This document shows, one piece after another, positions 13,956 to 63,026 of a stretch of DNA of 64,000 bases. The notes under the pieces are model-generated. The model was not told the DNA's origin. It was given only the letters and a program-made list of their open reading frames with translations, and did no database searches. The stretch comes from Mytilus trossulus (Eukaryota): positions 55,800,001 to 55,864,000 of the forward strand of contig NC_086379.1 in NCBI RefSeq assembly GCF_036588685.1, written 5' to 3'. A program made the translations under genes and the position numbers. Each line of letters starts with the position of its first letter. The stretch's first letter is position 1.

Positions 13956-14334
13956 TCAGAAATACTCGACAAACAACATAATCATAAATGATGCAAACAA
14001 AAGTTCTGGTAAGTGCGTTGTTTTAACCGACGAATTCGATGGGTCGTACTTGACAGTTGTCGATTTTGGTATAACAAGTGGACGTTTCGTCGTTTTTGTA
14101 TCTGGCTTTGGTGTTGTAGTAGTAGAAGTGGTAGTAGTAGTAGTTGTTGTTGTTGTTGATGTTGATGTCGTCGTTGTCGGATTCAAGAAGTGTGGTACAT
14201 CGTTTAACCAGAAGTTTACTCTGTCTTGAAAGAGATTAGAGCCGGTTGACATTTGTACCGACATTTTCAGAAATGCTTTGTCGTCTGGTAAATACTGTGG
14301 CCATGTTTGTGTCAGTTGGTCATCATTCGGGTTT
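13956..14334 (-). CDS. Carboxylesterase-like gene A, terminal exon: end of esterase domain (GNPN..WPQY..RVNFW), poly-Thr stalk, GPI-signal-like hydrophobic tail
   Basis: Acceptor ttttag at 14335-14340; gg+a joins in frame to exon 15129-16660; spliced product 636 aa. Confidence 0.9.
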
Positions 14335-14499
14335 CTAAAATGTGTAAAATAAATTTTCATTTAACTTTATTGTTACATCTAACTTTAAATCTTAAAAAGA
14401 TAATATTTTTTATAAAGTCACTATCGCATTGTTCCATTTATACATTATAAAATGTAAGCATTATCTTCGTAAATCAAAAGTAAGAGAACATTAGAAACT

Positions 14500-15020
14500 C
14501 GCAACGTCACGAGATTGATTTTCTCGCTTGAGCTGGGACGGCGAAAGCGAGAAAGGCAATTAGAGTTTAGATGACCAATGATAATCTGTTTATCGCTATT
14601 TTATCTATAACGACGTTGTCAATTTGATGTCAATTTCATTAGCAACGCCACGTGCCTCCTAAGTTTCTATCGTTAATTTTCCCCCGCAATCGAGTAGCAT
14701 GATATGAAAATCTCTCACAAAAAATATCAAAGGAAAAACGCACAAAATAGCGATAAATTATAATTATCGCTAGAAACTAAGGGCGCGTGTGCTGCTGTAA
14801 ATGAAATTTACAACGTCGTCATATATATAAAAATATATTTTATTGTCTAAATATACAATAGAATTGGATACAAGTTATAACAACTTAATAATATAATAGG
14901 TAAAATAGTGATAAATATATTATCAATGGTCATCTCAACTTGATTGCTCTTCTCACTTTCGCCGTACCGGCTCCAGCAAGATAATTATTATCGTTGAGAT
15001 GACCAACGATAATCTATTAT
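14500..15020. mobile_element. Foldback element in the gene A intron
   Basis: Long imperfect inverted repeats (gagctgggacggcgaaagcgagaa...gatgaccaatgataat vs attatcaatggtcatc...ttctcactttcgccgtaccggctc). Confidence 0.65.
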
Positions 15021-15128
15021 CATATAGTAGAAAAGTGAAAGTATTTCCATCTTGTTCCACTCAAAGCATGCGTTTGACTCATTATTTGCAGGCAGAGTTG
15101 ATCTCCATCAATAAGTAAGCATACTTAC

Positions 15129-16660
15129 CCGGTGTTGATGAAGTTGCTGTAATATTTTATAGCAGAGTCTGTAAGAGATATAAGAAAGTCTGGAAACATA
15201 TCAGGGTTAGAACTATGTAAAGATTTTGTCTGCAATAAGTACAACATTCCGTCAACATCGATAGTTCCATTCATCCATTCATTGCCTTGCATAAATGTAT
15301 TTGCTGGCGATAACTCTGACCAGAAAGAAAGATAAACTTCCTTATTTGAATGTGTTTTTAAATGTGTATTCAGTAAATCTGTTACCGGTGCATATGTAAA
15401 GAAATCTCCTATTGCTCTAAGAACATTACGACTTTGCTCTTTTTCATCGCTAGACGAGTACCAGTCGCATATCATTTTTTTAAGGTCGTCTATTTTTGTG
15501 GTTTGATAAAATGGAGAGATGATATTTGGAATGTAATGATTGCACAACACAGTCTTTGGTACCTTCTGGTTTGTTTCAAAGTTATATTGACTTTGTAATG
15601 GTGCTAATTGTTCGTAAACATTGATGAAATTTTCATATTCAGATAACGTGCTCAAAACATCTACAGGTATTAGAGATTTAAAGTCAGTTGCAGGAAGAAT
15701 AAATTCATTGTCGACAACGGGTCCAAAATTATACCAAAATGTGTCCGAATAAGTGGAAACAACACCATTCGCAATGGACCCTTTTTCTAAAATTTCACTT
15801 TCAGTTTTAGACATTAAACAATCATATATTTGCTGTGAAGTAAACACCACACTATTTTGAGACGCATCGGGGCATAACTGATTTGCCAGAGTTTGTGAGT
15901 ATTCTTCTGCTTCTTTCCATATAGCCCCATGTGTATTAGCAACCGTAGAGAAAAGCATGATTCTTTGGAAGTTTCCAAAATTTAAAGGAGTGCTTGCTTG
16001 TAAAGTGGTACATAGTCCAGTAGATTGAAAGCCTCCTAATGTTATCCGAGATGGATCACCACCAAATGCTTGTATATTGGACTTAACCCATTCTATTGCC
16101 ATTTTCTGGTCCCATAATCCAAAGTTTCCAGGAATAACAGAATCCCCAGTTGACAGGAATCCGAACACACCCAATCGAAACGCTACAACTACGTTAATCA
16201 CGTCACCGTACAAAACTAAATCTGACGTTGGTAGAAGTCCTCTCTGACCAGACTCAAATTTTTCACCGGCAAACCAAATAACTACCGATTTGCTAGAAGT
16301 TGTGTCTGACACCGGAACAAATAAGTCTAGTAAAAGACAATCTTCACTTATATCTCCACTTGGGAGAAAATCGACCATCCAGTCGGCAATAACTTGGCTG
16401 CAAATTCTTCCCCCTGTTATTGTGCCGTCTATGATACCTCCCCAAGATTTCAGTGGTTTCGGTTTTTCGAATCTCTTTGGTGGTTCAGCATACGGAATCG
16501 CGATGAAACTTTGCACGGCTATGCCATTTGTATCCATCTGTAAACCTTTAATCTGTCCGAGTTCTGTCGAAACAATCACTTCAGTTGGTAAGCTAATTTC
16601 ACCAAGGGAATACACTGGATACAGCAAAAGAGCAAATAAATTCAAGATTCGTTTATACAT
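15129..16660 (-). CDS. Carboxylesterase-like gene A, main exon: signal peptide + type-B carboxylesterase fold, predicted catalytically dead (Ser->Gln, His->Asp)
   Basis: IPYAEPP, SEDCL, FRLGVFGFLSTGD, GNFGLWDQ, FGGDP motifs; ATG directly after acceptor ttttacag; donor gg|gtaagt at 15128. Confidence 0.93.
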
Positions 16661-17429
16661 CTGTAAAATAGTTAAGTCATACTTTAAAATTTCAGAACTT
16701 CAAGAAACCAAGAGATATAAATTTCATGATATAATTATGTAGGACCAACAAGAAAACGTTTATTCTTAGAAAGCAACTTGCTTGCAATATGAATGGTGTA
16801 AATCGCAACCATGTCTGATAAACTATTTACACTCGGGGAGAAAGAAAAGAAATTGTTAAGCGTTGACTTTTAGCAGGAGAATTTTTCGCAATAGACTGAT
16901 TTCATACTGATGTTGAGTCAAACATCCAGGTATAAAAATTACTAAAGTAATCATGGAAACGCATCTAAAAAAAATAATTCGGTATCTTATTATCACATAA
17001 TTGTCATCAGGGTGCATTACTCTAGAAAAAAAACTTATTAAATCTTTATGATTTACCTTCACTTATTTCACAAAAGAATCTGGCGGGGAAATACTTCAAG
17101 TCACTATCAACGTAAACCTTTTACTCTAACAGTACCAAAATTACACCTACTTCGTTTTTTAGATAGTCATACTATTAAGTAAGTGATTTGGAATGTATTC
17201 ATCATGTATATTAAAATATGAAGATTTTGTATTCCGGGTATAGCATAGTAGGTGCCTAAATCCATGTAAACAAAACAACATAGGAACTGTACAACAACAA
17301 AAAAATCACACATGATCAAAAGCAACAATCAACAATCACTTAATTACAGGCTCCAGCATGTCTTGGGGGCAGACACACATATAATGTGGTGGGGGTAAAA
17401 CATGTTCGCTGGTCCTAATATATATATAT

Positions 17430-30658: not shown

Positions 30659-31274
30659 CTGAAAAAAAGATAAACGGTTTAATGACACTCTAGGGATTAT
30701 TTTCAAGCGTGAATACTTTTTGTATTGATATTTTAATTCAAATTTTCATTTTACTTTTTTTTTGAAAGGTATTAATGCAGAAAGAAAATCAAAACAGGTA
30801 TCATTGGATATTTGTGGCGTCATCGAAAAGACCTTCAACGTGTTTCTGTGAAAAATGCCATACACTTTGGTCGATGTTCAAATGGTATTGTACCAACTAC
30901 CAGTGTTTGTCGGTATGAACCATATGTATTATATAGATATGTGTCTGCATGGTACATGCATCTGCTAAAAATATTCATTTATTTGTTCATTTATTTACTC
31001 TACCCTGAAGATGTATAATATTTGCCACTGGATGGTAAACAAGCGTCAATAAAGCAGTACATCCATACATATTGAAATCTCCCGTTTCAAATGCAAGATT
31101 AGACACCAACTTACTTAGATTATCAGTGCTTAAATGAAATTCGTACTTTTTTATGCACCAAATCGGCTTAATTTTATACAAGAAAGAAAGAAAACTGTCT
31201 AAACTTGCGCTCTGCAAACATTAATTTGGTTCCTTCTAATACCAAAGAAACTTTTTATCAAGATGTGTACCTAC

Positions 31275-32680
31275 CCGTATTTTGCAAAGTTGGTCCAGTA
31301 TTTCATCACAGTTAAGCTTAGTGTTAAATCTTCAGATGTGTTTGAAAGGAAGTCATAAAACGGAAAGAGCAATGGTATTTCTGATGCATGACTTGCTCCT
31401 TCAAACCACAATGGTATTCTTTTGCTGAGGATAGTTCTCTTGGTACTTAAATATTGAAATGTCTTTGATAATGGAGTTCCATCAGAGTGAAAATTTAACG
31501 TTTCAACCGTTTTACTGTAGAAATAAATATCCCCATAATAGTAAACGCTGTTCATACTGCGGTAAAGTCCTAAGGAATAACCATATTTTTGGCAAACAGC
31601 CGGTGCTATTTTAGTGTTGTTGTTGTAGTCGTCCAAAGCCATTGTTGTTGCTAAGTGATTACACAATACAGACCGAGGAATTCCGAGATCTATGTTAAAT
31701 CGGTATGCTTTCTGTAACCTTGTCAACGGATTACCAAGAAGTAAGGAGCCTTCAGAATTAACATTACCAACAATCATGTCCAGTGAACGGAAAAACATGT
31801 AAGCTTCGGAAGACCGGTTCTTCAGAAGAATTTTTGGGTGGTCCATAAGCAAATCTCGGTCTACCCTTGGTGCAAACACGAGAAAATCGTGAGGGTCTGT
31901 AACTGGTAAACTGTACAGGAAGTTGTATGCATTTTGGACATCAGCGGCCGATTTATTTTTCAGACATTTTATTTCTTCAGACTGCTGGGGAGACGTACAC
32001 TTTAAAACGTTTATAATCCTGTTCGTGTAATATGTTATATTAAATTCGGTTGCGACAAAGGAAGTGGAGACTCCGCTTTGTGCAATCACGCGGTTAAATA
32101 AACCTTTATTCTGTGGAATCAGGCTATGTAAAGAAACACTAAAACCGCCGGCAGATTCTCCAAATATAGTAACGTTACTGGTATCTCCCCCAAACGCTTC
32201 AATGTTGTCCTTAACCCATTCAATAGCCATTTTCTGGTCCCAAAGTCCATAATTTCCGACAGCATTTTCGTTCCCAGTACTTAGAAATCCAAAAACACCA
32301 AGACGGTAGTTCACTGTGACAATGATGACGTCACCGACTGATGCCATATATGCACCATTATATAACATTCCTGTGCCAGTAATATATGATCCTCCATGAA
32401 TCCAAATCATTACAGCCTTTTTGGCAGCGGACGACAATTTACTGGTTGGGACGTAGATGTTAAGAAATAAACAATCTTCAGATATGGTATAATTGTTAGG
32501 AATGAATCCACTAACTATTTCGGAAGGTTGTCCCTGAATACAAGCACTTCCAAAATATGTAGCGTTCAATGTTTGATTCCAGGAACCAAACGCAACAGGT
32601 TTTTGAAATCTTAGATCTCCCACTGGTGGTTTCGCAAATGGAATACGCCTGAATTCATTATAAGTGTAGTTTTGAGGACC
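31275..32680 (-). CDS. Carboxylesterase gene B, main exon 3' part: intact catalytic machinery (WIHGG, GESAG, NSEG, GASHASEI)
   Basis: Canonical type-B carboxylesterase motifs; donor gg|gtaggt at 31274; cut off from its N-terminus by a transposon; 582 aa when restored. Confidence 0.92.
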
Positions 32681-33404
32681 AATAACACGGGTGTCATTCG
32701 GTTTATCGAGAGAAATGAGCGTGAAAGAATATCTAACGGCGGTCAAGTATTGAGCGACGATCGTGAAAGCTCTGGTAACGGATCGTGAAAGACATTTAAT
32801 GGAAATTCTAGGTCAGAATCTTTTAAAATATCGCTTAATTTTCAAAACGCGGAACAAATCCAAACAAAAAAATATGTCTGTCAAAATGGTTTAACTTCCC
32901 AAACATTACTGTGAAATAAGAAAGAGAAAATATGCAGTACTTTATGAAAAAACACAAAAGGCGCAATGCATATCTATGAAATTAATTACAAATAACACGC
33001 TTTTTGTTACTATAATGGTCATGTTTCAGTTCATCGTGATATATTTGGAATTTAATCTTTGGTGTATCTGATAGTACAGTAAATTTAAGGTATGTTCTTC
33101 TCTTAAAAGCATTAATTTGTATATGAAAACCTTGAATTTGTTGAATATCCATCAAACTTTATCGTGAAAGATCAGGCAACGCATTATTTTGATCGTGAAA
33201 GATAATGCGTGACCAGACTTATTACTCGTAATCAGAAATCAGTATTTCTTTTACCATTTGATAAACCTGCAACTGGTTGAAACCTGTAACTATATATTTT
33301 GATAAGGATGACATTAAAGCTATTTTTTTTTATTCAACGCTTTACCTCGAAAGTTAAAAGAACAACAACTAAAACATCTCTAAATAAGTTTAGTTTAAAC
33401 ATAT

Positions 33405-41565: not shown

Positions 41566-41992
41566 TCAGGATTTATATAATAGAACAATCTGGATTATTA
41601 ACAGAATACCCTTTACCAGACTGAATCTAATTGTAACAGATGCATTCACAGGGTCCGGTGCGATGGTTGCTACATCTAATTTTGGAAGAACAAGTGGTTG
41701 TTTTGTAGTTTTTGATAGTTGTTTTGATGGTGTTGATGTTGGTGTTGTTGTCGCTGTTTTTGCTGTTGTTTTTTTAGATAGTACTGTCGTTTTTACTGGT
41801 TGTAATGTTTGTAGTGGTTGTTCTATTGAGTCGGTTGGTACCGGTGAAAGATAAAGATATTCTTCATTAAGCCAGTAATACACCCTGTCCTCGAATAGAA
41901 AAGAACCTGTGGTTGGCTGTAGCTTCATTTGGATATATTCTTCATCGTCTGCAGTGTATGGTGGCCATATTTGTGCGTTAGAATTTGGGTTT
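41566..41992 (-). CDS. Carboxylesterase-like gene C, terminal exon (GNPN..WPPY..RVYYW, Thr/Lys-rich stalk, GPI-signal-like tail)
   Basis: Acceptor tttttcag at 41993; in frame with donor at 42944; spliced product 653 aa; AATAAA overlaps the TGA. Confidence 0.9.
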
Positions 41993-42423
41993 CTGAAAAA
42001 TGAAAACTGTTCTTAAATTGACTATAAGCAAAAGTATAAGTATAAGCAAACATGTTTATTACTTAGTACAGTTGTCTCTAATTACATTCTCTTATTTGAA
42101 CTTTGGTTGATAGTTGTCTCATTGGCAATCATACCAGATCTCCTTTTACAGTGAAATCTTAGTCCTTTAGCACAACTAAGGATACGTTTTGATATTGGAT
42201 ATTTTAATTGTGCACGCTAACAGAGTACTTAAACAGTTCAGCTGGCTGGCACCCATTTAAAAAAAACTTAGTAATGCGCAGTAGTTCATACGAAACGAAA
42301 AATCTAAAGTAAAAAAGCATTTTGCTAGCAATAACATAATGACATTTAATTTAATCCCTACACAATTGCAACGGTTAATATCTTTCTTTATCACCATTAT
42401 TGAAGATTGGACTTTTTTTCAAC

Positions 42424-42985
42424 TGAAATACTACTTGAAATACTCACCCTGTTTTGATGAAATAACTGTAAATTTGTGTAGTGGAGTCAGAAATGAAATA
42501 CTACTTGAAAATATTCACCCTGGTTTAATGAAGTTACTGACCATTTGTATAGTGGATTCAGAAATGAAATACTACTTGAAAACACTCACCCTGTTTTGAT
42601 GAAGTTACTGTACATTTGTATAGTGGATTCAGAAATGAAATACTACTTGAAAACACTCGCCCTGTTTTGATGAAGTTACTGTACATTTGTATAATGGATT
42701 CAGAAATGAAATACTACTTGAAAACACTCACCCTGTTTTGATGAAGTTACTGTACATTTGTATAGTGGATTCAGAAATGAAATACTACTTGAAAATACTC
42801 GCCCTGTTTTGATGAAGTTACTGTACATTTGTATAGTGGATTCAGAAATGAAATACTACTTGAAAACACTCGCCCTGTTTTGATGAAGTTACTGACTATT
42901 TGTATAGTGGATTCAGAAATGAAATACTACTTGAAAATACTCACCCTGTTTTGATGAAGTTACTGTACATTTGTATAGTGGATTC
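42424..42985 (-). repeat. 71-bp minisatellite (8 units) made of gene C's exon end + splice donor + intron start
   Basis: Donor positions recur every 71 nt: 42944, 42873, 42802, 42731, 42660, 42589, 42518, 42447. Confidence 0.95.
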
Positions 42986-44479
42986 TGCAAATGCTATAAG
43001 TTCTTGTGAAATAGCAGCTGGATCAATCGTTTGATAAGATTTAATTGCTAGTAAATATACAAGTGCGTCATTTTGGACAGTTCCGTCCATCCAGGTCAAA
43101 CTTGTGAGTATATCATCCAGTGGCGATTTTTGAGACCAAAGGCAAAGATAATTATTTTCACCGAGATTATAGTCGGTATGATCGTACATCAGCTCCGAAA
43201 TTGGTACATAATTATAAAAATCTCCAATTAATCTTAAAACATTACGGCTTTGTTCTGTGACGTCACTTGAGGTGTATCGATTGCATATGTTATTTATCAT
43301 CTGCTGTTTATTTTCTGGTGGCAAATGAGACTCAGCAATGGTTGGGACAACAACATCGCAAAGAACGGATTTCGGAATGTTCTTTGTTATGTCAAAATTG
43401 TATTGTGTTTGATAAGGAATTAGCTGTTCGTAAACCTTAAGTGCATGTTCGTTTTCAGATACTGTTGTCAATAGATCAACGGGTAGGATCTCTGTAAAGT
43501 AAAGATCTTTAATAAAATCGTTATCAAAAACTGGTCGAAAATCAAATTCAAGTTTCAATTTAGAAAACCCATTCGCGGTATCCACTGCTGTTTTTGTCTC
43601 ACTTATTAATTCTGCTTCAGTTTTAGAAGTTAAACAGTCATAAATTTCCTTAGATTGCAACCTAAATTTTGAATTGCTTGGACATAAAGCTCTTGTTAAA
43701 GCTCTCGCAATTGACATTATGAAGTCAAAGTTTTCCCCAACGACATTTCCATACAAATGAGAAACATCGGAATAAATCAAAAGTCTTTGAAAATTTCCGT
43801 CATTTAATTTATGATGTGCTTGTAGAGTGGCAGATACTGCACCGGCACCGAATCCTGCAAGTGTGATTTGATCAGAATCGCCTCCAAAGGCATTTATATT
43901 TGCTTTTATCCATTCTATTGCCATTTTCTGATCCCATAATCCAAAATTTCCAGGAATAAAAGAATCACCAGTTGAAAGGAATCCAAAAACACCTAATCGA
44001 AACGCTACAACTACGTTAATCACGTCACCGTACAAAACTAAATCTGACGTTGGTTGAAGTCCTCTCTGGCCAAACTCGAAGTTGTCTCCTGCAAACCATA
44101 TAACTACTGCTTTTTTGGTGATAATTTTTGTATTTGATACCGGAACGAATACATCTAGTAAAAGACAGTCTTCACTGACATCTGTACTTGGAAGAAAGCC
44201 TGCTAACTCTGGAACTATAGCTTGGCTGCATATTTTTCCTCCTGGTTGTGTGCAGTCTTTTGTGCCTACCCAAGATTTTACTGGTGTTGGTTTCTTGAAT
44301 CTTTCTGGGGGTTCAGCATAAGGAATTCCATAGAAACTTTGAAGAAACATGTTATTTATAGACGTGGACACTCCTTCTACACTCCCCGTTGTTGTTGTAG
44401 CAACCACAGTATTCATGCTTGATTGACTTTTAGACAACATAGGATACAACACAACCAAAAACACAACTCGAAAAAACAT
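42945..44479 (-). CDS. Carboxylesterase-like gene C, main exon; predicted catalytically dead (Ser->Gly in GFGAG, His->Gln)
   Basis: GIPYAEPP, SEDCL, GNFGLWDQ, FGGD motifs; ATG directly after acceptor ttccag; donor gg|gtgagt. Confidence 0.93.
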
Positions 44480-44755
44480 CTGGAATACATTTAATTACAC
44501 TTATTTCAATCGCAGTTGAGAAACAAATAACAATGCAACACTTTTGTATTTAAACCACAATCTTTACTATACATGAATACCGCTTAAGCAAGACTACAGT
44601 ATCAGGGTCGTCATACACTTGCAGTGATGTAATAGTTCGGGTTTGGTCTTTTTTGCATTGTGTTGAAGGCTTCACTGTGAAGAATGTGAGATGAAGAACA
44701 GCAATAAAAGGCTGTTACTTTGCTTTTTGCGTGGTTTGTTTATGTTATACGTTTA

Positions 44756-48750: not shown

Positions 48751-49168
48751 TTAGACGTAATTAACAATAAGGATAAAAGGAATGGTTAATAGTACACGAA
48801 GGTCAGACTTTAAAATGTTCATGTGATTGTTAAGGCTTTCTGTGCTGGTTTCAGTTATGGTTTCGGTGATGGTTTCACTTGTTTCTCTTGTTGCTATCTT
48901 CTTGATGGTCATGTCTGACACAGTGCTAATTTGTTGAGGGCAATGGGTGGAAGTAATTGGCATCCGTTCTGACGTTGATGTCAAATTTGTACGAGGGATG
49001 CCAAGAAAATCTGGAACAGTCTCCATCCAAAACTGCATGCGGTCTTTATACAAACTATGCTCTTTGTGTATACTGAAGTTGCTACTAAAATGCATATAGT
49101 ACTGGTTTCTGATATCATATACAGGCCAGATTTTCAAGGACTCGTCTGCAGGACAAGGATTAGGGTTT
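48751..49168 (-). CDS. Carboxylesterase-like gene D, terminal exon (GNPN..WPVY..RMQFW, Thr/Ser/Glu stalk, GPI-signal-like tail)
   Basis: Acceptor ttacag at 49169; in frame with donor at 50330; spliced product 637 aa. Confidence 0.88.
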
Positions 49169-50330
49169 CTGTAATTAAATATAAAAGGATAAAAATAACA
49201 TTTATGTAAAAGTAAATATCAAACAATTCAAACATAAAAATGTAAAACTATACATTATTTATGTCATGCGTCCTAATCGCTTTTTCCTATTTATCTTCTT
49301 CGAGAACGCTTAAAACCAAATTTTTGAAAATCTTTATTTTGAATTTAAAATTTTGACTTTTGAAATCTCTAATTTCATTTTTTTCTATTCAAACACAGTT
49401 TAATACTATTCTGGAAGGAGTGGACATGGAAGCAAATAATTAAATTATATTCAAAAATGTTTTTTTATTCAATCATTACATGGATTAGCATTTAATATTA
49501 AAGAGTTCATTCGGTATAAGAACATGAATGTTGACAGAAAAAAATGTTGTTTCCCATGTTTTAGTTTCTACGACACTGTGATATTAAGTCGAAATTTCAA
49601 GGTACTAAAAGTCAATAGTAAGAACTTTGAGTTAAAGTCGATATTTTCAGATTTGAAAAACAAGTTTTTTTATGTGTACTATATCCCTAATACGCTTCCG
49701 TAGATGTCTTTTGTCCCTTAATCAATAACGAATCATAAAGCTATGATTTCACAAAAAAACAGACTTTATCAAAACCAATAACTTGGGATGAATAATGAAA
49801 ATTACAAACTGTAAACAATGTGATACCACTAGATAATAAATCATTCGAATTCAAAATACCAAACTGCATAACAGCAAAGAAAAGCAATTGTGATTGTATA
49901 CACTGTTGTTAAATTTGAGCATTTGGAAAATCTTAATGACTGTCAATTCACCACATATTTTTTGAGGATCCTACTTGATTGAACCAGTAAAACCTCCATC
50001 GACTTTGTCTCAGTATATTTTTTTATAAAGTCAGAATTTTACAGCATTAAAGATACAGACAACATAATCTTTGTAATGTAATCATGTCACTGAGCCGGAA
50101 GGATTTGCGCATGCCTTTCTGTACTTGTCTTTTTCAAAGTTTAAACTATCTTATTACCTACATTTACACGTATTATACTATAAAATTGAGAATGGAAATG
50201 GGGATGTGCCAAAGAGACAACAAACAACCTGACCATAGAGCAGACAACAACAGAAGGTCACCAACAGGTCTTCAATGCAACGAAAAATTCCCACGCCCGG
50301 AGGTGTAAATATATTTGATTTGATTCGTAC

Positions 50331-51826
50331 CCATAAACAACAAAATTACTCCAGTACTTCATGAATGTATCTCCCAGATTTGTTTCTTCTGCCTTGAAGG
50401 AGAATCCATAGTCTATGTTGATATCTTTCAATGATAAATATATAGTCGTTGTACCCGGCGAGGGTACCATGTTCCACACACTTTGAGCAAGATTGTCCAC
50501 AGGGTTGACAGCTGAAAACAATCCTAAAAATCTGCTGTTTTCAGTATTTGTCAAGTCATGGATTTTCAGCATATTTATGATAGGCGAATAATACAAGATA
50601 TCCCCGATCAGCCTAACAGCATCCCTGCTCTGTTCCACGGAATCACTTTTTGTATAAAAATTGCAAATTAGGTCTTTAAGGTCTTGTCTATTTTCAAAAA
50701 ATAGACTAACAATATGTGTAACTATTTTGTTACAAAGCACATCTTTTGGGACACCTTCGTTGACATTTATGTTGTATTCATTTTCAATTTCAGAGACAAA
50801 GGTCGTGAACTTTATCATTCCTTCGGCTGAAACACACAGACTTAAAACATCCACGGGGAGAATGGCGTTAAAATTTGCTGTTTCTGAAATGAAATCGTTA
50901 TCAATAACAGGACCCACAGCAAATCTCAATGATTTCGATGTTGGATAGATGCTATTTACTGCATCTAGAAGTTCTGTAGCTGGTTTTCTTACAAGACAAT
51001 CGTAAATTTGTTGTGACGTAAAATTAAAATCTCCAGACGACGTAGCTTGACAAGAGTGTTTTGCTAGCTTTTGAGCAAATTCTTCTGCATCTGTAACAAT
51101 AGCTTCCTTTGAATCCGGGAAACCTGAATGTACTATAATACGATGGATTTTGTCCTTGTTTAAAGAATGTGCTACCTGTAACCCGACAAATAAAGCACCG
51201 ATTTTTAGACCAGTCAATGTAATTCGGAAAGGGTCACCACCAAAAGCATGGATGTTTTCATTGACCCATTCTATAGCCATTTGTTGATCCCACAGACCAA
51301 AATTCCCAGGAATGACGTTATCTCCTGTCGACAAAAAACCAAATATATCAACTCTGAAAGAAACATACACAAATATAGCATCGCTGTATAACCCTAAGTA
51401 TTTAAAAAATGTATAAACTGATGTTTGTGCGGTTCGAAAATCTCCTGGTATCATTATGACAACGGGCTTTTTGTTGTGTTCTGATAAAGATCTTGGGACA
51501 TAAATATCAACGTATAGACAGTCCTCGGTGAGTTCTGAGTTTTGAAGCTGTTGTTTCAATTGGTCAGAAATAGCCTGCATACATAGTTTTCCTGGGTTCA
51601 TTGCATTCAATGTAGAGTTCCATTTATTAGACATTTTTTGTGGTTTCTTGAACCTTTCAGGCTGCTCTGCATACGGAACTCCATAAAATCGATAGATTTT
51701 CGCTCCATTGAATGGTATTTCCTTACCCATTACTACACCAGATGGCGTGTTAACAGTTACTGGAATTTGACAATTCAGTGTGTCAAAAAGAATAGCAATA
51801 ACTACTATCTCAAAAACACGTAACAT
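50331..51826 (-). CDS. Carboxylesterase-like gene D, main exon; predicted catalytically dead (Ser->Lys in GLKIG, His lost)
   Basis: GVPYAE, TEDCL, GNFGLWDQ, FGGDP motifs; ATG directly after acceptor tttcag; donor gg|gtacga at 50330 (ORF track reads into the intron). Confidence 0.92.
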
Positions 51827-52140
51827 CTGAAATTATAAAAAATACATTTTAGTTACACTAACATTCAGCAGTGAAGTATGTAGTGTGTATGGCTTTAGTT
51901 TTCGAAAGGTGTTTAGAACTTTCTTTTCAAAAAATTTCAAAGAGAAAAAAGTACTTAAAAATAATTCTGTAACTAAAACACAACGGGAAGCAGGGAGAAT
52001 TTACTGTATAATAACGAGAAGGCTAAAAATGAATACAATGCACGAACTCACTCAATCAATACTGATAAAACAATAGTATCTGGAGACTTGACGTTAAAAC
52101 GTGTTCTTGTGGGTAGCAATTAGTTACCAAGTTGTAGTAA

Positions 52141-53340
52141 GTGCCACTTATCAAGGTTCTGGTATGTTTCTATTATCAAGATTATTGTATGTACCAATTA
52201 TCAAGTTTATGGGATGTTCCAGTTATCAAAGTTCTGCTATGAAGCAATGAGCAAGGTGTTGGTATGTTCCACTTATCAAGATTATGGTAAGTACCACTTA
52301 TCAAGATATTATTATATACCAATTATAAATGTTATTGAATGTACCAATTATCAAGCTATTAGTATATACCAATGATAAAAGGTTATGGTATGATGAAATG
52401 AGCAAGGTGCTAGTATGTTCCATTTATCAAATTTATGAGGTGTATCAATTATCAAAGTTCTGGTATGTATCAATTATCAAAGTTATGGGATGTATCAATT
52501 ATCAAAGTTATGAGATGTATCAATTATCCAATTTATTAGATGTATCAATTATCGAAGTTATGGGATGTATCAATTATCAAAGTTATGGGATGTATCAATT
52601 ATCAATTGAAAGTTATGAGATGTATCAATTATCAAATTTATAAGATGTATCACTTATCAAAGTTATGGGATGTATCAATTATCAAAGTTATGAGATGTAT
52701 CAATTATCAAATGTATGAGATGCAATTATTAAATTTACGGGATGTATCAATTATCAAAGTTATGAGATGTATCAATTATCAAATTTATTAGATGTATCAA
52801 TTATCGAAGTTATGGGATGTATCAATTATCAAAGTTATGAGATGTATCAATTATCAAATTTATTAGATGTATCAATTATCAAAGTTATGGGATATATCAA
52901 TTATCAAAGTTATGAGATGTATCAATTATCAAAGTAATGAGATGCAATTATCAAAGTTATGTGATGTATCAATCATCAAAGTTATGAGATGTATCAATTA
53001 TCAAATTTATGAGATGTATCAATTATCAAAGTTACGGGATGTATCAATTATCAAATTTATTAGATGTATCAATTATCAAAGTTATGGGATGTATCAATTA
53101 TCAAAGTTATGAAATGTATCAATTATCAAAGTTATGAGATGTATCAATTATCAAAGTTATGAGATGCAATTATCAAATTTATGAGATGTATCAATTATCA
53201 AAGTTATGAGATGCAATTATCAAATTTATGAGATGTATCAATTATCAAAGTTATGGGATGTATCACAATTATCAAAGTTCTGGTATGAAACAATGAGCAA
53301 GGTGTTTGTATGTTCCACTTATCAAGATTAAGATTATGAT
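52141..53340. repeat. 25-bp satellite, subfamily 1 (gatgtatcaattatcaaagttatg[g/a]) with degenerate flanking monomers
   Basis: Direct tandem units; homogeneous over ~52440-53280. Confidence 0.95.
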
Positions 53341-56300
53341 ATGTACTAATTGTCAAGGTATTGGTATGTAACAATTGTCAAGGTATTGGTGTGTACTAAT
53401 TGTTAAGTAGTGATATGTACCAATTGTCAAGGTATTGGTGTGTACCAATTGTCAAGGTATTGGTATGTAACAATTGTCAAGGTATTGGTATGTAACAATT
53501 GTCAAGGTATTGGTATGTAACAATTGTCAAGGTATTGGTATGTAACAATTGTTAAGTATTGGTATGTAACAATTGTCAAGGTATTGGTATGTACCAATTG
53601 TCAAGGTATTGGTGTGTAACAATTGTCAAGGTATTGGTATGTAACAATTGTCAAGGTATTGTTATGTACCAATTGTCAAGGTATTGGTATGTACCAATTG
53701 TTAAGTATTGGTATGTAACAATTGTCAAGGTATTGGTATGTAACAATTGTTAAGGTATTGGTATGTAACAATTGTCAAGGTATTGGTATGTAACAATTGT
53801 CAAGGTATTGGTATGTAACAATTGTTAAGTATTGGTGTGTAACAATTGTCAAGGTATGGTATGTACTAATTGTCAAGGTATTGGTGTGTAACAATTGTCA
53901 AGGTATTGGTATGTAACAATTGTCAAGGTATTGTTATGTACCAATTGTCAAGGTATTGGTATGTACCAATTGTTAAGTATTGGTATGTAACAATTGTCAA
54001 GGTATTGGTATGTACCAATTGTCAAGGTATTGGTGTGTAACAATTGTCAAGGTATTGGTATGTAACAATTGTCAAGGTATTGTTATGTACCAATTGTCAA
54101 GGTATTGGTATGTACCAATTGTTAAGTATTGGTATGTAACAATTGTCAAGGTATTGGTATGTACCAATTGTCAAGGTATTGGTGTGTAACAATTGTCAAG
54201 GTATTGGTATGTAACAATTGTCAAGGTATTGGTATGTACCAATTGTCAAGGTATTGGTGTGTAACAATTGTCAAGGTATTGGTATGTAACAATTGTCAAG
54301 GTATTGTTATGTACCAATTGTCAAGGTATTGGTATGTACCAATTGTTAAGTATTGGTATGTAACAATTGTCAAGGTATTGGTATGTACCAATTGTCAAGG
54401 TATTGGTGTGTAACAATTGTCAAGGTATTGGTATGTAACAATTGTCAAGGTATTGGTATGTAACAATTGTCAAGGTATTGGTGTGTACTAATTGTTAAGT
54501 ATTGGTGTGTAACAATTGTCAAGGTATTGGTATGTACCAATTGTCAAGGTATTGGTGTGTACCAATTGTTAAGTATTGGTATGTAACAATTGTCAAGGTA
54601 TTGGTATGTACCAATTGTCAAGGTATTGGTATGTAACAATTGTCAAGGTATTGGTATGTACCAATTGTCAAGGTATTGGTATGTAACAATTGTCAAGGTA
54701 TTGTTATGTACCAATTGTCAAGGTATTGGTATGTACCAATTGTTAAGTATTGGTATGTAACAATTGTCAAGGTATTGGTATGTAACAATTGTTAAGTATT
54801 GGTATGTACCAATTGTCAAGGTATTGGTATGTACCAATTGTCAAGGTATTGGTATGTAACAATTGTCAAGGTATTGGTATGTACCAATTGTCAAGGTATT
54901 GGTGTGTAACAATTGTCAAGGTATTGGTATGTAACAATTGTTAAGTATTGGTATGTACCAATTGTCAAGGTATTGGTGTGTAACAATTGTCAAGGTATTG
55001 GTATGTAACAATTGTCAAGGTATTGTTATGTACCAATTGTCAAGGTATTGGTATGTACCAATTGTTAAGTATTGGTATGTAACAATTGTCAAGGTATTGG
55101 TATGTACCAATTGTCAAGGTATTGGTGTGTAACAATTGTCAAGGTATTGGTATGTAACAATTGTCAAGGTATTGGTATGTAACAATTGTCAAGGTATTGG
55201 TGTGTACTAATTGTTAAGTATTGGTGTGTAACAATTGTCAAGGTATTGGTATGTACCAATTGTCAAGGTATTGGTGTGTACCAATTGTTAAGTATTGGTA
55301 TGTAACAATTGTCAAGGTATTGGTATGTACCAATTGTCAAGGTATTGGTATGTAACAATTGTCAAGGTATTGGTATGTACCAATTGTCAAGGTATTGGTA
55401 TGTAACAATTGTCAAGGTATTGTTATGTACCAATTGTCAAGGTATTGGTATGTACCAATTGTTAAGTATTGGTATGTAACAATTGTCAAGGTATTGGTGT
55501 GTACCAATTGTCAATGTATTGGTATGTAACAATTGTCAAGGTATTGGTATGTACCAATTGTCAAGGTATTGGTATGTAACAATTGTCAAGGTATTGGTAT
55601 GTACCAATTGTCAAGGTATTGGTATGTAACAATTGTCAAGGTATTGGTATGTACTAATTGTAAAGGTATTGGTGTGTACTAATTGTCAAGGTATTGGTAT
55701 GTACCAATTGTCAAGGTATTGGTATGTACCAATTGTCAAGGTATTGGTGTGTACCAATTGTCAAGGTATTGGTATGTAACAATTGTCAAGGTATTGGTGT
55801 GTACTAATTGTTAAGTATTGGTATGTAACAATTGTCAAGGTATTGGTATGTACCAATTGTCAAGGTATTGGTGTGTACCAATTGTTAAGTATTGGCATGT
55901 AACAATTGTCAAGGTATTGGTATGTACCAATTGTCAAGGTATTGGTATGTAACAATTGTCAAGGTATTGGTATGTAACAATTGTCAAGGTATTGGTATGT
56001 AACAATTGTCAAGGTATTGGTATGTACTTATTGTCAAGGTATTGGTGTGTACCAATTGTAAAGGTATTGGTATGTAACAATTGTCAAGGTATTGGTATGT
56101 AACAATTGTCAAGGTATTGGTGTGTACTAATTGTTAAGTATTGGTATGTAACAATTGTCAAGGTATTGGTATGTACCAATTGTCAAGGTATTGGTGTGTA
56201 CCAATTGTCAAGGTATTGGTATGTAACAATTGTCAAGGTATTGGTATGTAACAATTGTCAAGGTATTGGTATGTACTTATTGTCAAGGTATTGATGTGTA

Positions 56301-57270
56301 CCAATTGTAAAGGTATTGGTATGTACCAATTGTCAAGGTATTGGTATGTAACAATTGTCAAGGTATTGGTGTGTTCTAATTGTTAAGTATTGGTATGTAA
56401 CAATTGTCAAGGTATTGGTATGTACTAATTGTTAAGTATTGGTATGTACTAATTGTCAAGGTCTTGGTGTGTACTAATTGTTAAGAATTGGTATGTAACA
56501 ATTGTCAAGGTATTGGTGTGTACTAATTGTCAAGGTATTGGTATGTACTAATTGTCAAGGTATTGGTATGTAACAATTGTCAAGGTATTGGTATGTACTT
56601 ATTGTCAAGGTATTGGTGTGTACCAATTGTAAAGGTATTGGTATGTACCAATTGTCAAGGTATTGGTATGTAACAATTGTCAAGGTATTGGTGTGTACTA
56701 ATTGTTAAGTATTGGTATGTAACAATTGTCAAGGTATTGGTATGTACTAATTGTTAAGTATTGGTATGTACTAATTGTCAAGGTCTTGGTGTGTACTAAT
56801 TGTTAAGAATTGGTATGTACCAATTGTCAAGGTATTGGTGTGTACTAATTGTCAAGGTATTGGTATGTAACAATTGTCAAGGTATTGGTATGTAACAATT
56901 GTCAAGGTATTGGTATGTACTAATTGTCAAGGTATTGGTATGTACTAATTGTCAAGGTATTGGTATGTACTAATTGTCAAGGTATTGGTATGTAACAATT
57001 GTCAAGGTATTGGTATGTACTAATTGTCAAGGTATTGGTGTGTACTAATTGTCAAGGTATGGTATGTAACAATTGTCAAGGTATTGGTGTGTACTAATTA
57101 TTAAGTATTGGTGTGTAACAATTGTCAAGGTATTGGTGTGTAACAATTGTCAAGGTATTGGTGTGTACCAATTGTCAAGGTATTGGTATGTAACAATTAT
57201 AAAAAAAATGGTACGTAGCAATTATTAATGTAATGGTATGCATTAATTATCAATTTGTACCAATTATTAA
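53341..57270. repeat. 25-bp satellite, subfamily 2 (tatgtaacaattgtcaaggtattgg), ~155 units with 24-bp variants and higher-order blocks
   Basis: Direct tandem units; 149-bp and 719-bp periodicities visible. Confidence 0.97.
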
Positions 57271-60151: not shown

Positions 60152-61118
60152 GGCAAACATGCAAAAATAAGTTTGAAAATTTGTCATTTGAGAACTAAAA
60201 TTCCTCAATCTATTATGATCTGGATTGGGTTTACAGAATAGAGAATATATAATGCCCGCATGACATAATGAAAAGAGAAAAATATAGCAAAAAGAAAAAA
60301 GAACACTGTGGCAAATATTGATCACAGAAATTAACAATATACAGAATAATGAAATCGTATTGTTGTAGATAAATTAGGATTAAAATCGTTTTTATAAGAA
60401 TTTTACTGAATATACAAAAATACCACAAAAATAAAAAAATACAGACAACAGAATCTCTATTTTTTGCTTATTACAATTCTGTGTATCTCGATACGTAAAT
60501 ATATAAGTATATACTAGTAGGTAAAAAAAATATTGAAGAATATGCTTGTTGTTCGGTGTGAGCCAACTTGAAGGCTACGTGTTGAAGGCCGTACATTGAC
60601 CTATAATGGTTTACTTTTATAAATTGTTATTTGGATGGAGAGTTGTCTCATTGGCACTCACACCACATCTTCCTATATATAAACACAAAGACCTACCTAG
60701 GAGTCTATTCTCGTATTCAGAAGAAGAGACAACTGCCTGTGGCCGTAACACATAATTATTTTAATTTTACTGAAAATTTTTATTTGATGATAAATCAACA
60801 TCATTAAAAAAGATATTTTCAAAGCAATTTATAGCTTGTTATATTTATTTGAAAATCTGTGGACATGTTTTCTAGCAATCGTAATGTTAAGCCAAAGAAC
60901 CTATTTCCTCTCCTTTTTACTTTCTAAACACACACATATATCTGTTTTCCATTTTTAATTTGTTTTTGTATATATGGGAGTACAAATGCTACATGTATAT
61001 CAAAATTTAAATGTTTGATATTTCTTAAAGCTCTTGATGCATACACAGTTTCATATAAACCCGAAATACTGCAAAATTTTATATTCTTCGCCGATATTTT
61101 ATCCTAATCCATCTTTTG

Positions 61119-61493
61119 ATGCGTCATAAAGACAGGAGACGTCACATAACGTTACTTAGAAGCAGGATCTTGGGGAATGAAGGAACAGACGAAAGAATGG
61201 CGAAATGGGACTTATCAGTAACGAGACTTAACAATGTACTGGCGTTAAAGGAGAAAAATGGCGGATGGAAACCAGATAAAACTAACTTAAACATACTGGA
61301 AACGAAAGGGTTTATCATAGGGAAAACTATTGGCGAGGGAAAGTATTCAAAAATAAAGAAAGCATTTTGCACCCGTACGAAAGAGACAATTGCAATCAAA
61401 ATTATCCACAAGTCCCGATTGCACCCAGGAGATTGTCAGAAGTTCATCCCAAGAGAATTAGAAATTTTGAGAACACTGCAGCACCCTGGATTG
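61119..61493 (+). CDS. TSSK: Testis-specific serine/threonine kinase family gene, exon 1 (alternative start 61197)
   Basis: IGEGKYSKIK glycine loop, IAIKII, KFIPRELEIL (TSSK signature); donor ttg|gtaatc. Confidence 0.85.
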
Positions 61494-62089
61494 GTAATCA
61501 TATTTATTTACTATGTTGTACACTTTATACCTATGATCATACTCTTTTTTTCTGTTCACCATATATAATATTCTCCTTAGTCAAAATTTATTTGTGTGCA
61601 TTACTCTCAAATCTTTTACTGAAACTATATTTCTTAGTTTGGTAATTTAAGACTCGGACAGTGATTCGCTCACAGCTTTTAATTTGTCTCTATTTCACTT
61701 TCATTAAAACATACAAATACTAGTAGAAGGAAAACATTGCGTATCTATAAGACAACAACTCAATAGTATACAACCAACAAAAGACATGCGAGTGAACTCT
61801 AGATTGAACACCAAGTCGGAAAGAAAAAAATAAACATAGATATATAAATTTGAGAGAATTTATTTTATTTATTGAAGAAAATCAAAATAACGGTTGTTAT
61901 GGTACCCGATTATACGAATTGATAAACTTCATATGATTTACAATGCAAAGATAGTTTTATAAGTTTTGCGGCTAAATTTAATAGTTTTTACCAAAAAAGG
62001 GGGAACAGTTGTTGGGGGCAATCCTATCTTTGCCCTTTGCAACACCTATTAATCACTACATACATGTTATAATATTTATTCTTTTCCAG

Positions 62090-62330
62090 TTGGATGTCTT
62101 GCAATTGTTTGAATGTGACCGAATGTTTTACATCACTATGGAATACGCACCCAATGGAGACTTAACCACTTTCATAAATAAACTTGGTTGTTTAGGGGAA
62201 GCAGATGCACGACGTTTGTTCAAGCAACTACTGGATATTGTTGCTTATCTCCATGAGAATAAAATTTGTCATCGTGACATTAAATGTGACAATATTCTGT
62301 TAGATAGATGTTTTAATGTTAAGTTGGCAG
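62090..62330 (+). CDS. TSSK: TSSK-family kinase, exon 2
   Basis: Acceptor cttttccag; MEYAPNGDL, HRDIKCDNILLD (KCxN typical of TSSKs); donor g|gtaagt. Confidence 0.92.
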
Positions 62331-63026
62331 GTAAGTCTCTCACAAATAATCTTGATAAATTATTAAATACAAACTGATTAGACCGTTGGTTTTCCCATTT
62401 GAATGGTTTTACACTAGTAATTTTAGGGCCCTTTATAGCTTGTTGTTCGGTGTGAGCCAAGGCTCCGTGTTGAAGACCGAACACTGACCTTTAATGGTTT
62501 ACTTTTATATATTGTTATTTGGGTGGAGAGTTGTCTCATTGGCACTCACACCACATCTTCCTATATCTATGACATATTTTAATTAATTTGTAATATTTTA
62601 TAACTTAATTACCTAATTACGCAACTATGTTTTCTCATGTTAAACTAAAACTCATGTATATTTGAAGATAATTATTGAATATTTTGAATCGTATTGCACA
62701 TAAGTTTATATGTTTTCATGTTTTGAATATTTTTATGTTGTTCGTGTATACTACGATACGCAGTAAATATTTTCCACTAAGGGCTTATATAAAACCGAAA
62801 TGATACATTTGGTTAAATTTTTTTAACAGCCTCTCAATTAGGTCTCGTTACATATTGAATAAATCGCAAAAAAACTTGTTATCGCAAATATAAAATAAAA
62901 GATGTGGTATGATTGCCAATCAGTCACCTCTCCATATGACACCAAATGACACAGAAATTAACAATTAAAGATCACCGTATGACCTTCAACAATGAGCAAA
63001 GCCCACATCACAAAGTCAGCTATAAC

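What the first reader, a model, noticed from the sequence alone, without database searches (positions are those of the whole stretch)
42424..42985. Minisatellite built from a splice donor: eight tandem 5' splice sites, three changed to GC
The 71-bp unit is the last 41 nt of gene C's exon (ESTIQMYSNFIKTG) plus 30 nt of intron. Donors are GT at 42944 (true), 42731, 42589, 42518 and 42447, but GC at 42873, 42802 and 42660. The two nearest competitors are weakened, as expected if selection protects the true site. Any downstream donor retains the in-frame GGG-TGA, giving an NMD target or an anchorless truncated protein. Copy number could therefore tune expression or membrane anchoring, and the coding end may co-evolve with the array.
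Basis: partly seen in the sequence, partly recalled or inferred. Interest (0 to 1): 0.7.

Follow-up and report, generated by a model that had tools for sequence, protein, structure and literature searches.

The report
Repeated splice donor in mussel gene
In a mussel esterase-like gene the end of an exon and its splice signal are repeated eight times, the assembled transcripts use the first copy, and this is likely an ordinary, tolerated repeat of a kind known from lancelet and human genes and common in this genome, not a dial on expression.

Summary
The array is real: 8 x 71 bp, minus strand, five GT and three GC donors at the stated positions, and short-read contigs fit that make-up. It sits at the exon 2/intron junction of a Mytilus carboxylesterase-family gene. 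Contigs from two likely RNA runs join the first donor to exon 3, giving the 653-aa database protein. Downstream donors would give a 512-aa protein cut inside the esterase domain. Selection for the GC copies is not supported: one mutation can explain them, their placement is within chance, two related organisms carry 2-3 copies with an intact GT neighbour, and 22 of 23 other exon-like arrays sampled from this genome have GT at copy 2 (biased sample). This is a new member of a known kind: lancelet 'mirages' and human F7/CBS/ABCA7 boundary minisatellites. The scan has noted the same kind at many other places in this genome and in other animals. Minor leak to downstream donors and copy-number effects were not testable.

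The parts
42424..42993 (-). 71-bp minisatellite, 8 copies, first unit spanning the exon 2/intron boundary
   Evidence: depth of variant contigs
42915..42985 (-). Copy 1: last 41 nt of exon 2 plus first 30 nt of the intron
42943..42944 (-). Authentic GT donor (AGG|GTGAGTAT)
   Evidence: loose ends of X2 and X3 contigs at 42945 are the start of exon 3; model equals P0001
42941..42943 (-). In-frame TGA at intron +2..+4, kept by any downstream donor
42872..42873 (-). Copy 2 pseudo-donor, GC, +7 G
42801..42802 (-). Copy 3 pseudo-donor, GC
42730..42731 (-). Copy 4 pseudo-donor, GT, +7 G
42659..42660 (-). Copy 5 pseudo-donor, GC, +7 G
42588..42589 (-). Copy 6 pseudo-donor, GT, +7 G
42517..42518 (-). 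Copy 7 pseudo-donor, GT, +5 G>A
42446..42447 (-). Copy 8 (terminal, most diverged unit) pseudo-donor, GT, identical to the true site over -3..+8
42945..44479 (-). Large coding exon of gene C (carboxylesterase family PF00135; nucleophile motif GFGAG, no serine)
41993..42944 (-). 952-nt phase-2 GT-AG intron holding copies 2-8
41566..41992 (-). Last coding exon: end of the esterase domain, Thr/Pro-rich stalk, hydrophobic C-terminal tail (likely GPI-type signal, inferred)

Best explanation
This is a minisatellite whose first unit spans an exon/intron boundary, so the splice donor recurs seven more times in the intron; the first donor is the one seen in transcripts, and the extra copies, GC or GT, are likely silent passengers that change by ordinary repeat turnover. 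Shown: array, junction, stop codon, presence in three other coded organisms or samples. Inferred: a tandem duplication older than the split from relatives with about 6% exon divergence; later growth to about 8 copies in this lineage by unequal exchange or slippage; one T>C change at +2 (making a CpG) spread with the units; the most upstream donor wins, as shown experimentally for human F7 (mammalian cells only). Rare slips would give a stop-bearing mRNA and a protein cut inside its fold, so selection likely acts on copy 1 only.
For: Contigs of X2 and X3 (likely RNA, two samples, one study) end at 42945 with exon 3's first bases as loose end. The spliced model equals database protein P0001, 653 aa. 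In X12 and X17 a 95-nt contig spans the unit-to-unit junction and the donor with no other letter listed at +2, at 1.25 and 1.67 times single-copy depth, i.e. roughly 2-3 copies with GT in an inner copy. Donor 9-mer not richer in variable columns than the rest (2/9 vs 12/57, p=1.0; 3/8 vs 11/58, p=0.22). Of 30 evaluable donor-motif arrays in G000, 23 have a stop-free frame of 37 codons or more ending at the first donor (25% of 1860 control positions; p=1.2e-6); 7 have protein homology; copy 2 is GT in 22 of 23 and 309 of 317 downstream donors are GT. Terminal copy most diverged (9-14 differences), as described for mirages (PMC3087553). PMC1557585: only the most upstream functional donor is used.
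Against: All six inner copies (2-7) differ from the true donor at +2, +5 or +7, and the three substitution columns of the intron part all fall in +1..+8 of +1..+25 (p=0.024, post hoc). The 31-array sample required three intact donors, so GC-rich arrays (this one too) are missed. The array has persisted across relatives and its unit seems unchanged there (0 differences in 71 nt if the 3 other letters are copy-2-specific; chance about 0.01-0.02 at 6.2%). In human 6-16, CBS (PMC1557585 introduction) and ABCA7 (PMC5954066) the nearest pseudo-donors are used to some degree.
Confidence: 0.8

Rival explanations
1. Compensated leak: as the array grew in this lineage, nearby donors leaked into stop-bearing mRNA and weak selection favoured units with +2, +5 or +7 changes, so the array's inner make-up protects expression.
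For: Every inner copy has a donor-region change; p=0.024 post hoc within the intron part. GC is seen in the 7-8-copy samples X1 and X7 by bubble position and not in the contigs of the 2-3-copy organisms. L055 also has GC at copy 2. The CBS precedent has a substitution in the second repeat (title only, reference list of PMC1557585).
Against: Not significant over the whole unit (p=0.22; p=1.0). One T>C event suffices. X7 shows the unchanged donor haplotype at about 1.8 times single-copy depth (noisy). 18 of 18 exon-like arrays with 8 or more chained copies have GT at copies 2 and 3, including genes matching NOL10 and a carnitine acyltransferase.
Confidence: 0.12
2. Regulatory dial: copy number or make-up sets the share of mRNA sent to nonsense-mediated decay or to a secreted, anchorless form.
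For: Stop 67-493 nt before the last junction meets the recalled 50-55 nt rule; ABCA7's VNTR begins at a donor and one-unit retention gives a premature stop (PMC5954066 passages); array kept across relatives.
Against: The truncated protein loses the last 43 Pfam profile positions. The junction assembled in both likely-RNA runs is the first donor. The three paralogues show no repeat just after the same intron position (TRF).
Confidence: 0.05
3. Assembly artefact: copy number or the GC bases come from assembly error.
For: X1, which matches best, may be the source of the assembly; no long reads were examined.
Against: X1 variant contigs stand at 0.96, 0.98, 1.94, 1.83 and 0.93 times single-copy depth, as the assembly predicts (1,1,2,2,1); X7 from another study has the same four bubbles; X5, X12, X17 carry the unit-to-unit junction.
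Confidence: 0.02

Closest known systems
Lancelet 'mirage' minisatellites (Adh3, globins BflGb6/BflGb9, troponin C, PGBD5); PMC3087553 passages, PMC3902484 one passage
   Same: Tandem copies of an exon/intron boundary in an invertebrate, unit in the reported 10-160 bp range, many but not all units with splice signals, normal splicing, terminal units left out of homogenisation, allele length differences
   Different: Mollusc rather than cephalochordate; three of eight donors are GC; somatic instability not tested here
Human F7 intron 7 37-bp VNTR (PMC1557585; abstract and passages of introduction, results, discussion)
   Same: First unit spans the donor, 5-9 copies, only the most upstream donor used
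   Different: F7 pseudo-sites are identical to the true site and were shown functional by mutation; here six of seven differ and none was tested; unit holds 41 exon bases rather than 4
Human CBS intron 13 31-bp VNTR, 6-16, LMNB2 and PDGF arrays (as summarised in the PMC1557585 introduction; primary papers not read; CBS VNTR nomenclature seen in PMC2630376 passages)
   Different: In CBS and 6-16 one or two proximal pseudo-sites are used; no such use was seen here at contig level
ABCA7 intron 18 25-bp VNTR (PMC5954066 passages)
   Same: Unit begins at the donor; use of the next copy gives a premature stop
   Different: Length-dependent splicing was measured there; nothing comparable is shown here

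Membership tests
Exon/intron-boundary minisatellite ('mirage', F7 type) | Head-to-tail array of minisatellite-sized units | tested here: met
   71 bp x 8.0, 93% matches
Exon/intron-boundary minisatellite ('mirage', F7 type) | End unit spans a real exon/intron boundary so that the splice signal recurs | tested here: met
Exon/intron-boundary minisatellite ('mirage', F7 type) | Authentic site gives the regular mRNA | tested here: met
   2 of 2 likely-RNA runs laid join 42945 to exon 3; contigs only, minor forms not visible
Exon/intron-boundary minisatellite ('mirage', F7 type) | Copy number varies between alleles | tested here: inconclusive
   Rough contig depths: about 8 (X1), about 7-8 with other proportions (X7), about 2-3 (X12, X17, other organisms); no within-species allele sizes
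Exon/intron-boundary minisatellite ('mirage', F7 type) | Inner units homogenised, terminal unit diverged | tested here: met
   Copies 1-6 differ by 0-5 nt, copy 7 by 5-8 from them, copy 8 by 9-14
Exon/intron-boundary minisatellite ('mirage', F7 type) | Somatic instability (Adh3) | not testable with these tools
   needs single-molecule typing of tissues
Splicing-tuning VNTR (ABCA7 type) | Downstream donor used in transcripts | tested here: inconclusive
   Only the first-donor junction assembled in X2, X3; contigs drop rare forms and decay would hide them
Splicing-tuning VNTR (ABCA7 type) | Isoform share or expression tracks copy number | not testable with these tools
   needs matched genotypes and raw RNA reads
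Unproductive splicing coupled to NMD | Alternative form has a stop more than 50-55 nt before the last junction (rule recalled; not established for molluscs here) | tested here: met
   67-493 nt, on paper only
Unproductive splicing coupled to NMD | Alternative form rises when NMD is blocked | not testable with these tools
   experiment needed
Carboxylesterase family (PF00135), host gene | Full-length profile match | tested here: met
   residues 26-552 to profile 4-515, E 8.5e-91
Active serine carboxylesterase | Nucleophile serine in G-x-S-x-G | tested here: not met
   GFGAG aligns with GESAG of cholinesterase; same in both orthologues

The most novel reading that the evidence does not exclude
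Mussel genomes carry hundreds of donor-copying minisatellites (about 200 by extrapolation from two 8-mers alone), and at this one the growth from 2-3 to 8 copies was followed by selection for donor-weakening variants in every inner copy: compensatory evolution inside a repeat to hold down leak into nonsense-mediated decay, with allele make-up setting the level of a surface-anchored pseudo-esterase.
Probability: 0.1. Interest if true: 0.5.

Novelty: new member of a known kind. Interest (0 to 1): 0.17.

Why it matters
On its own the locus matters little: it repeats a build known from lancelet and human genes. The useful by-product is scale. A crude extrapolation gives about 200 exon-abutting donor arrays in this genome from two 8-mers and one period range, some in housekeeping genes with 8-30 intact donors. 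That would be a large natural test of first-donor-wins splicing outside mammals and a caution for read mapping and gene annotation. If the GC copies proved selected, it would be a clean case of compensatory change inside a repeat.

Tried and rejected
No RNA holder is on record as RNA; X2 and X3 are guesses that behave as spliced RNA. Zero cover of X2 and X3 in 42880-42940 and 44527-44700 is not used as evidence of no read-through: contigs drop rare forms. Absence of a GC bubble in X12 and X17 is likewise not proof of absence (4 of 4 records shown for each). For X5 the donor letters could not be read because tables were cut. Reads were laid only on stretches with about 1.5 units, so use of copies 3-8 could not be seen as joints and unit order in other samples is unknown. 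Genome-wide excess of donor-motif arrays over the reversed control: 1642 vs 312 for one motif but 386 vs 385 for the other and 348 vs 226 for an acceptor motif; counts are driven by long arrays, so no enrichment is claimed. Pfam named only 3 of 22 candidate exons (the TPR hit is below its cut-off, the spectrin hit ends before the donor). L069 and L070 were first read on the wrong strand and L066 mis-chained, corrected. The relatives' flank behind the last copy has no good match in this intron (best 18 of 30). A protein search of G000 with the exon end gave only genes C and A. Two papers were not held; a search for VNTR + UPF3A + splice gave 0; PMC12783039, PMC10078293 and PMC2812944 (passages) added no closer precedent. 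Searches naming Mytilus or bivalve with minisatellite and splice terms and 'mirage' listed no mussel paper; this covers the held open library only, no supplements were read.

Full report
Observation. TRF finds one array at 42424-42993, period 71, 8.0 copies, 93% matches. Read on the minus strand each unit is the last 41 nt of a coding exon plus 30 nt of intron. Donors are GT at 42944, 42731, 42589, 42518 and 42447 and GC at 42873, 42802 and 42660, exactly as stated. A DNA search of G000 found the unit only here (the tool calls its counts lower bounds).

Host gene. Joining 42945 to 41992 gives 653 aa, identical to database protein P0001, labelled Mytilus trossulus, with orthologues at 93% (M. 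edulis) and 85% (M. californianus). It matches PF00135 over residues 26-552, but its nucleophile motif is GFGAG where cholinesterase has GESAG, so it is likely not an active esterase. The tail is hydrophobic to within three residues of the end, likely a GPI-type signal (inference). Any downstream donor keeps GGG-TGA: 512 aa, stop 67-493 nt before the junction. That form stops at profile position 472 of 515, inside the domain, so a stable anchorless protein is unlikely (inference). The exon end is ESTIQMYSNFIKTG in M. edulis too and differs by one residue in M. californianus: no sign that the array drives the coding end.

Transcripts. No run is on record as RNA. I laid 2 of the 4 RNA-guess runs that hold most of the exon (X2, X3; two samples, one study). 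In both, a long contig stops matching at 42945 and its loose end is the start of exon 3. This shows the first donor in use. It cannot show that the others are never used: contigs drop rare forms, decay would thin them, and the stretch laid held only 1.5 units.

Is the array real, and how old? In X1 (possibly the assembly's source) four 56-nt contigs cover the +2/+7 pair at 0.96, 0.98, 1.94 and 1.83 times single-copy depth, and a contig with copies 7-8 at 0.93; the assembly predicts 1, 1, 2, 1.88 and 1 (letters not printed, assignment by number of differences and contig ends). X7, another study, has the same four contigs at 1.83, 1.34, 0.91 and 2.63. X12 and X17, other coded organisms (X12's exon contig differs at 62 of 1000 nt), each have a 95-nt contig across the unit-to-unit junction and donor, with no other letter listed at +2, at 1.25 and 1.67 times single-copy depth: roughly 2-3 copies with GT in the inner copy. 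Their last copy shares the one-T deletion of copy 8 but has another flank. So the array predates that split and likely grew here. Depth of contigs is a rough guide only.

Are the GC copies selected? The +2 and +7 variants occur in all four combinations; three steps explain this and three of the four shortest paths need a single T>C, which makes a CpG prone to revert (inference from general knowledge). The chance that a variant column falls on +1/+2 is 9% (3 shared columns) to 38% (14 columns); that copies 2 and 3 are both among 3 GC of 7 is 14%; donor 9-mer versus rest p=1.0; +1..+8 versus rest p=0.22. Against my reading: all six inner copies carry a +2, +5 or +7 change, and the three substitution columns in the intron part all lie in +1..+8 (p=0.024, post hoc).

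Background in this genome. Patterns with three donor 8-mers at 50-75 nt spacing gave 1642 matches (control 312) and 386 (control 385). I fetched all 31 arrays among the first 100 listed matches of each (22 + 9). One (L057) was dropped because the array starts at the locus edge. Of 30, 23 have a stop-free frame of 37 codons or more ending at the first donor, against 25% of 1860 random positions (rank test p=1.2e-6; the cut-off of 37 was set after seeing the data). Pfam named 3 of 22 scanned; 4 of 4 that I picked by recalled likeness hit solved structures: acetyl-CoA synthetase, NOL10, a phosphodiesterase GAF domain, SLC38A9. Among the 23, copy 2 is GT in 22; copies 2 and 3 are GT in 18 of 18 with 8 or more chained copies; 309 of 317 downstream donors are GT, 4 GC. 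The sample is biased to intact donors, chains can be incomplete (L061: 12 of about 49), and this array itself would be missed. It still shows that long runs of intact neighbours are tolerated. Extrapolation gives about 300 arrays, about 200 exon-like, for these two motifs.

What is known. PMC1557585 (abstract, passages): the F7 VNTR repeats its donor 5-9 times, only the most upstream functional one is used; it lists 6-16, CBS, LMNB2 and PDGF. PMC3087553 and PMC3902484 (passages): lancelet 'mirages' do not disturb splicing and show concerted evolution with end units excluded; the lead came from earlier scan notes. PMC5954066 (passages): ABCA7 one-unit retention gives a premature stop. Searches naming mussels or bivalves listed no paper on this (open library only). 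The scan has already noted this kind at 8 or more other places of this genome and in other animals; these notes are unchecked and not counted as support.

Verdict. Observation confirmed; interpretation partly supported. New member of a known kind, likely neutral (0.8); compensatory selection 0.12; regulatory dial 0.05; artefact 0.02. Interest 0.17.

Noticed in passing
window 13956-16699, 31271-32812, 41566-44494, 48751-51832 (all minus): Four tandem carboxylesterase-family genes with the same intron position after the conserved N-F-x-x-x-G; only the one at 31271-32812 keeps GESAG, the others read GFQST, GFGAG and GLKIG, so three are likely non-catalytic despite esterase names in databases.
   Followed up: partly
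window 42915-42985 versus contigs of X12 and X17: The repeat unit seems unchanged in related organisms while the adjoining exon differs by 6.2% and 5 differences lie within the next 45 nt; chance about 0.01-0.02, post hoc, and it assumes the 3 unlisted differences are those of copy 2. Unexplained.
   Followed up: partly
G000 genome-wide; L040-L070: Donor-copying arrays are frequent, with examples in genes matching acetyl-CoA synthetase (L052), NOL10 (L059), SLC38A9 (L049), a phosphodiesterase (L070) and a carnitine acyltransferase (L061); L055 has GC at copy 2.
   Followed up: partly
G000:C1:2074782, C1:55307735, C1:85039330, C2:71527014: Acceptor-side arrays also occur (348 matches, control 226); by eye several units look like intron tail plus exon start.
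   Followed up: no
G000 genome-wide: Arrays with AG|GTAAGT outnumber the reversed control five-fold whereas AG|GTGAGT arrays do not; may be an effect of a few long arrays.
   Followed up: no
window 52137-57240: About 5 kb of 25-bp tandem repeats with strong GC skew just upstream of the fourth esterase gene.
   Followed up: no
window 61059-62377 (+): Two open frames that look like exons of a serine/threonine kinase (likeness to testis-specific kinases is recalled, not tested).
   Followed up: no
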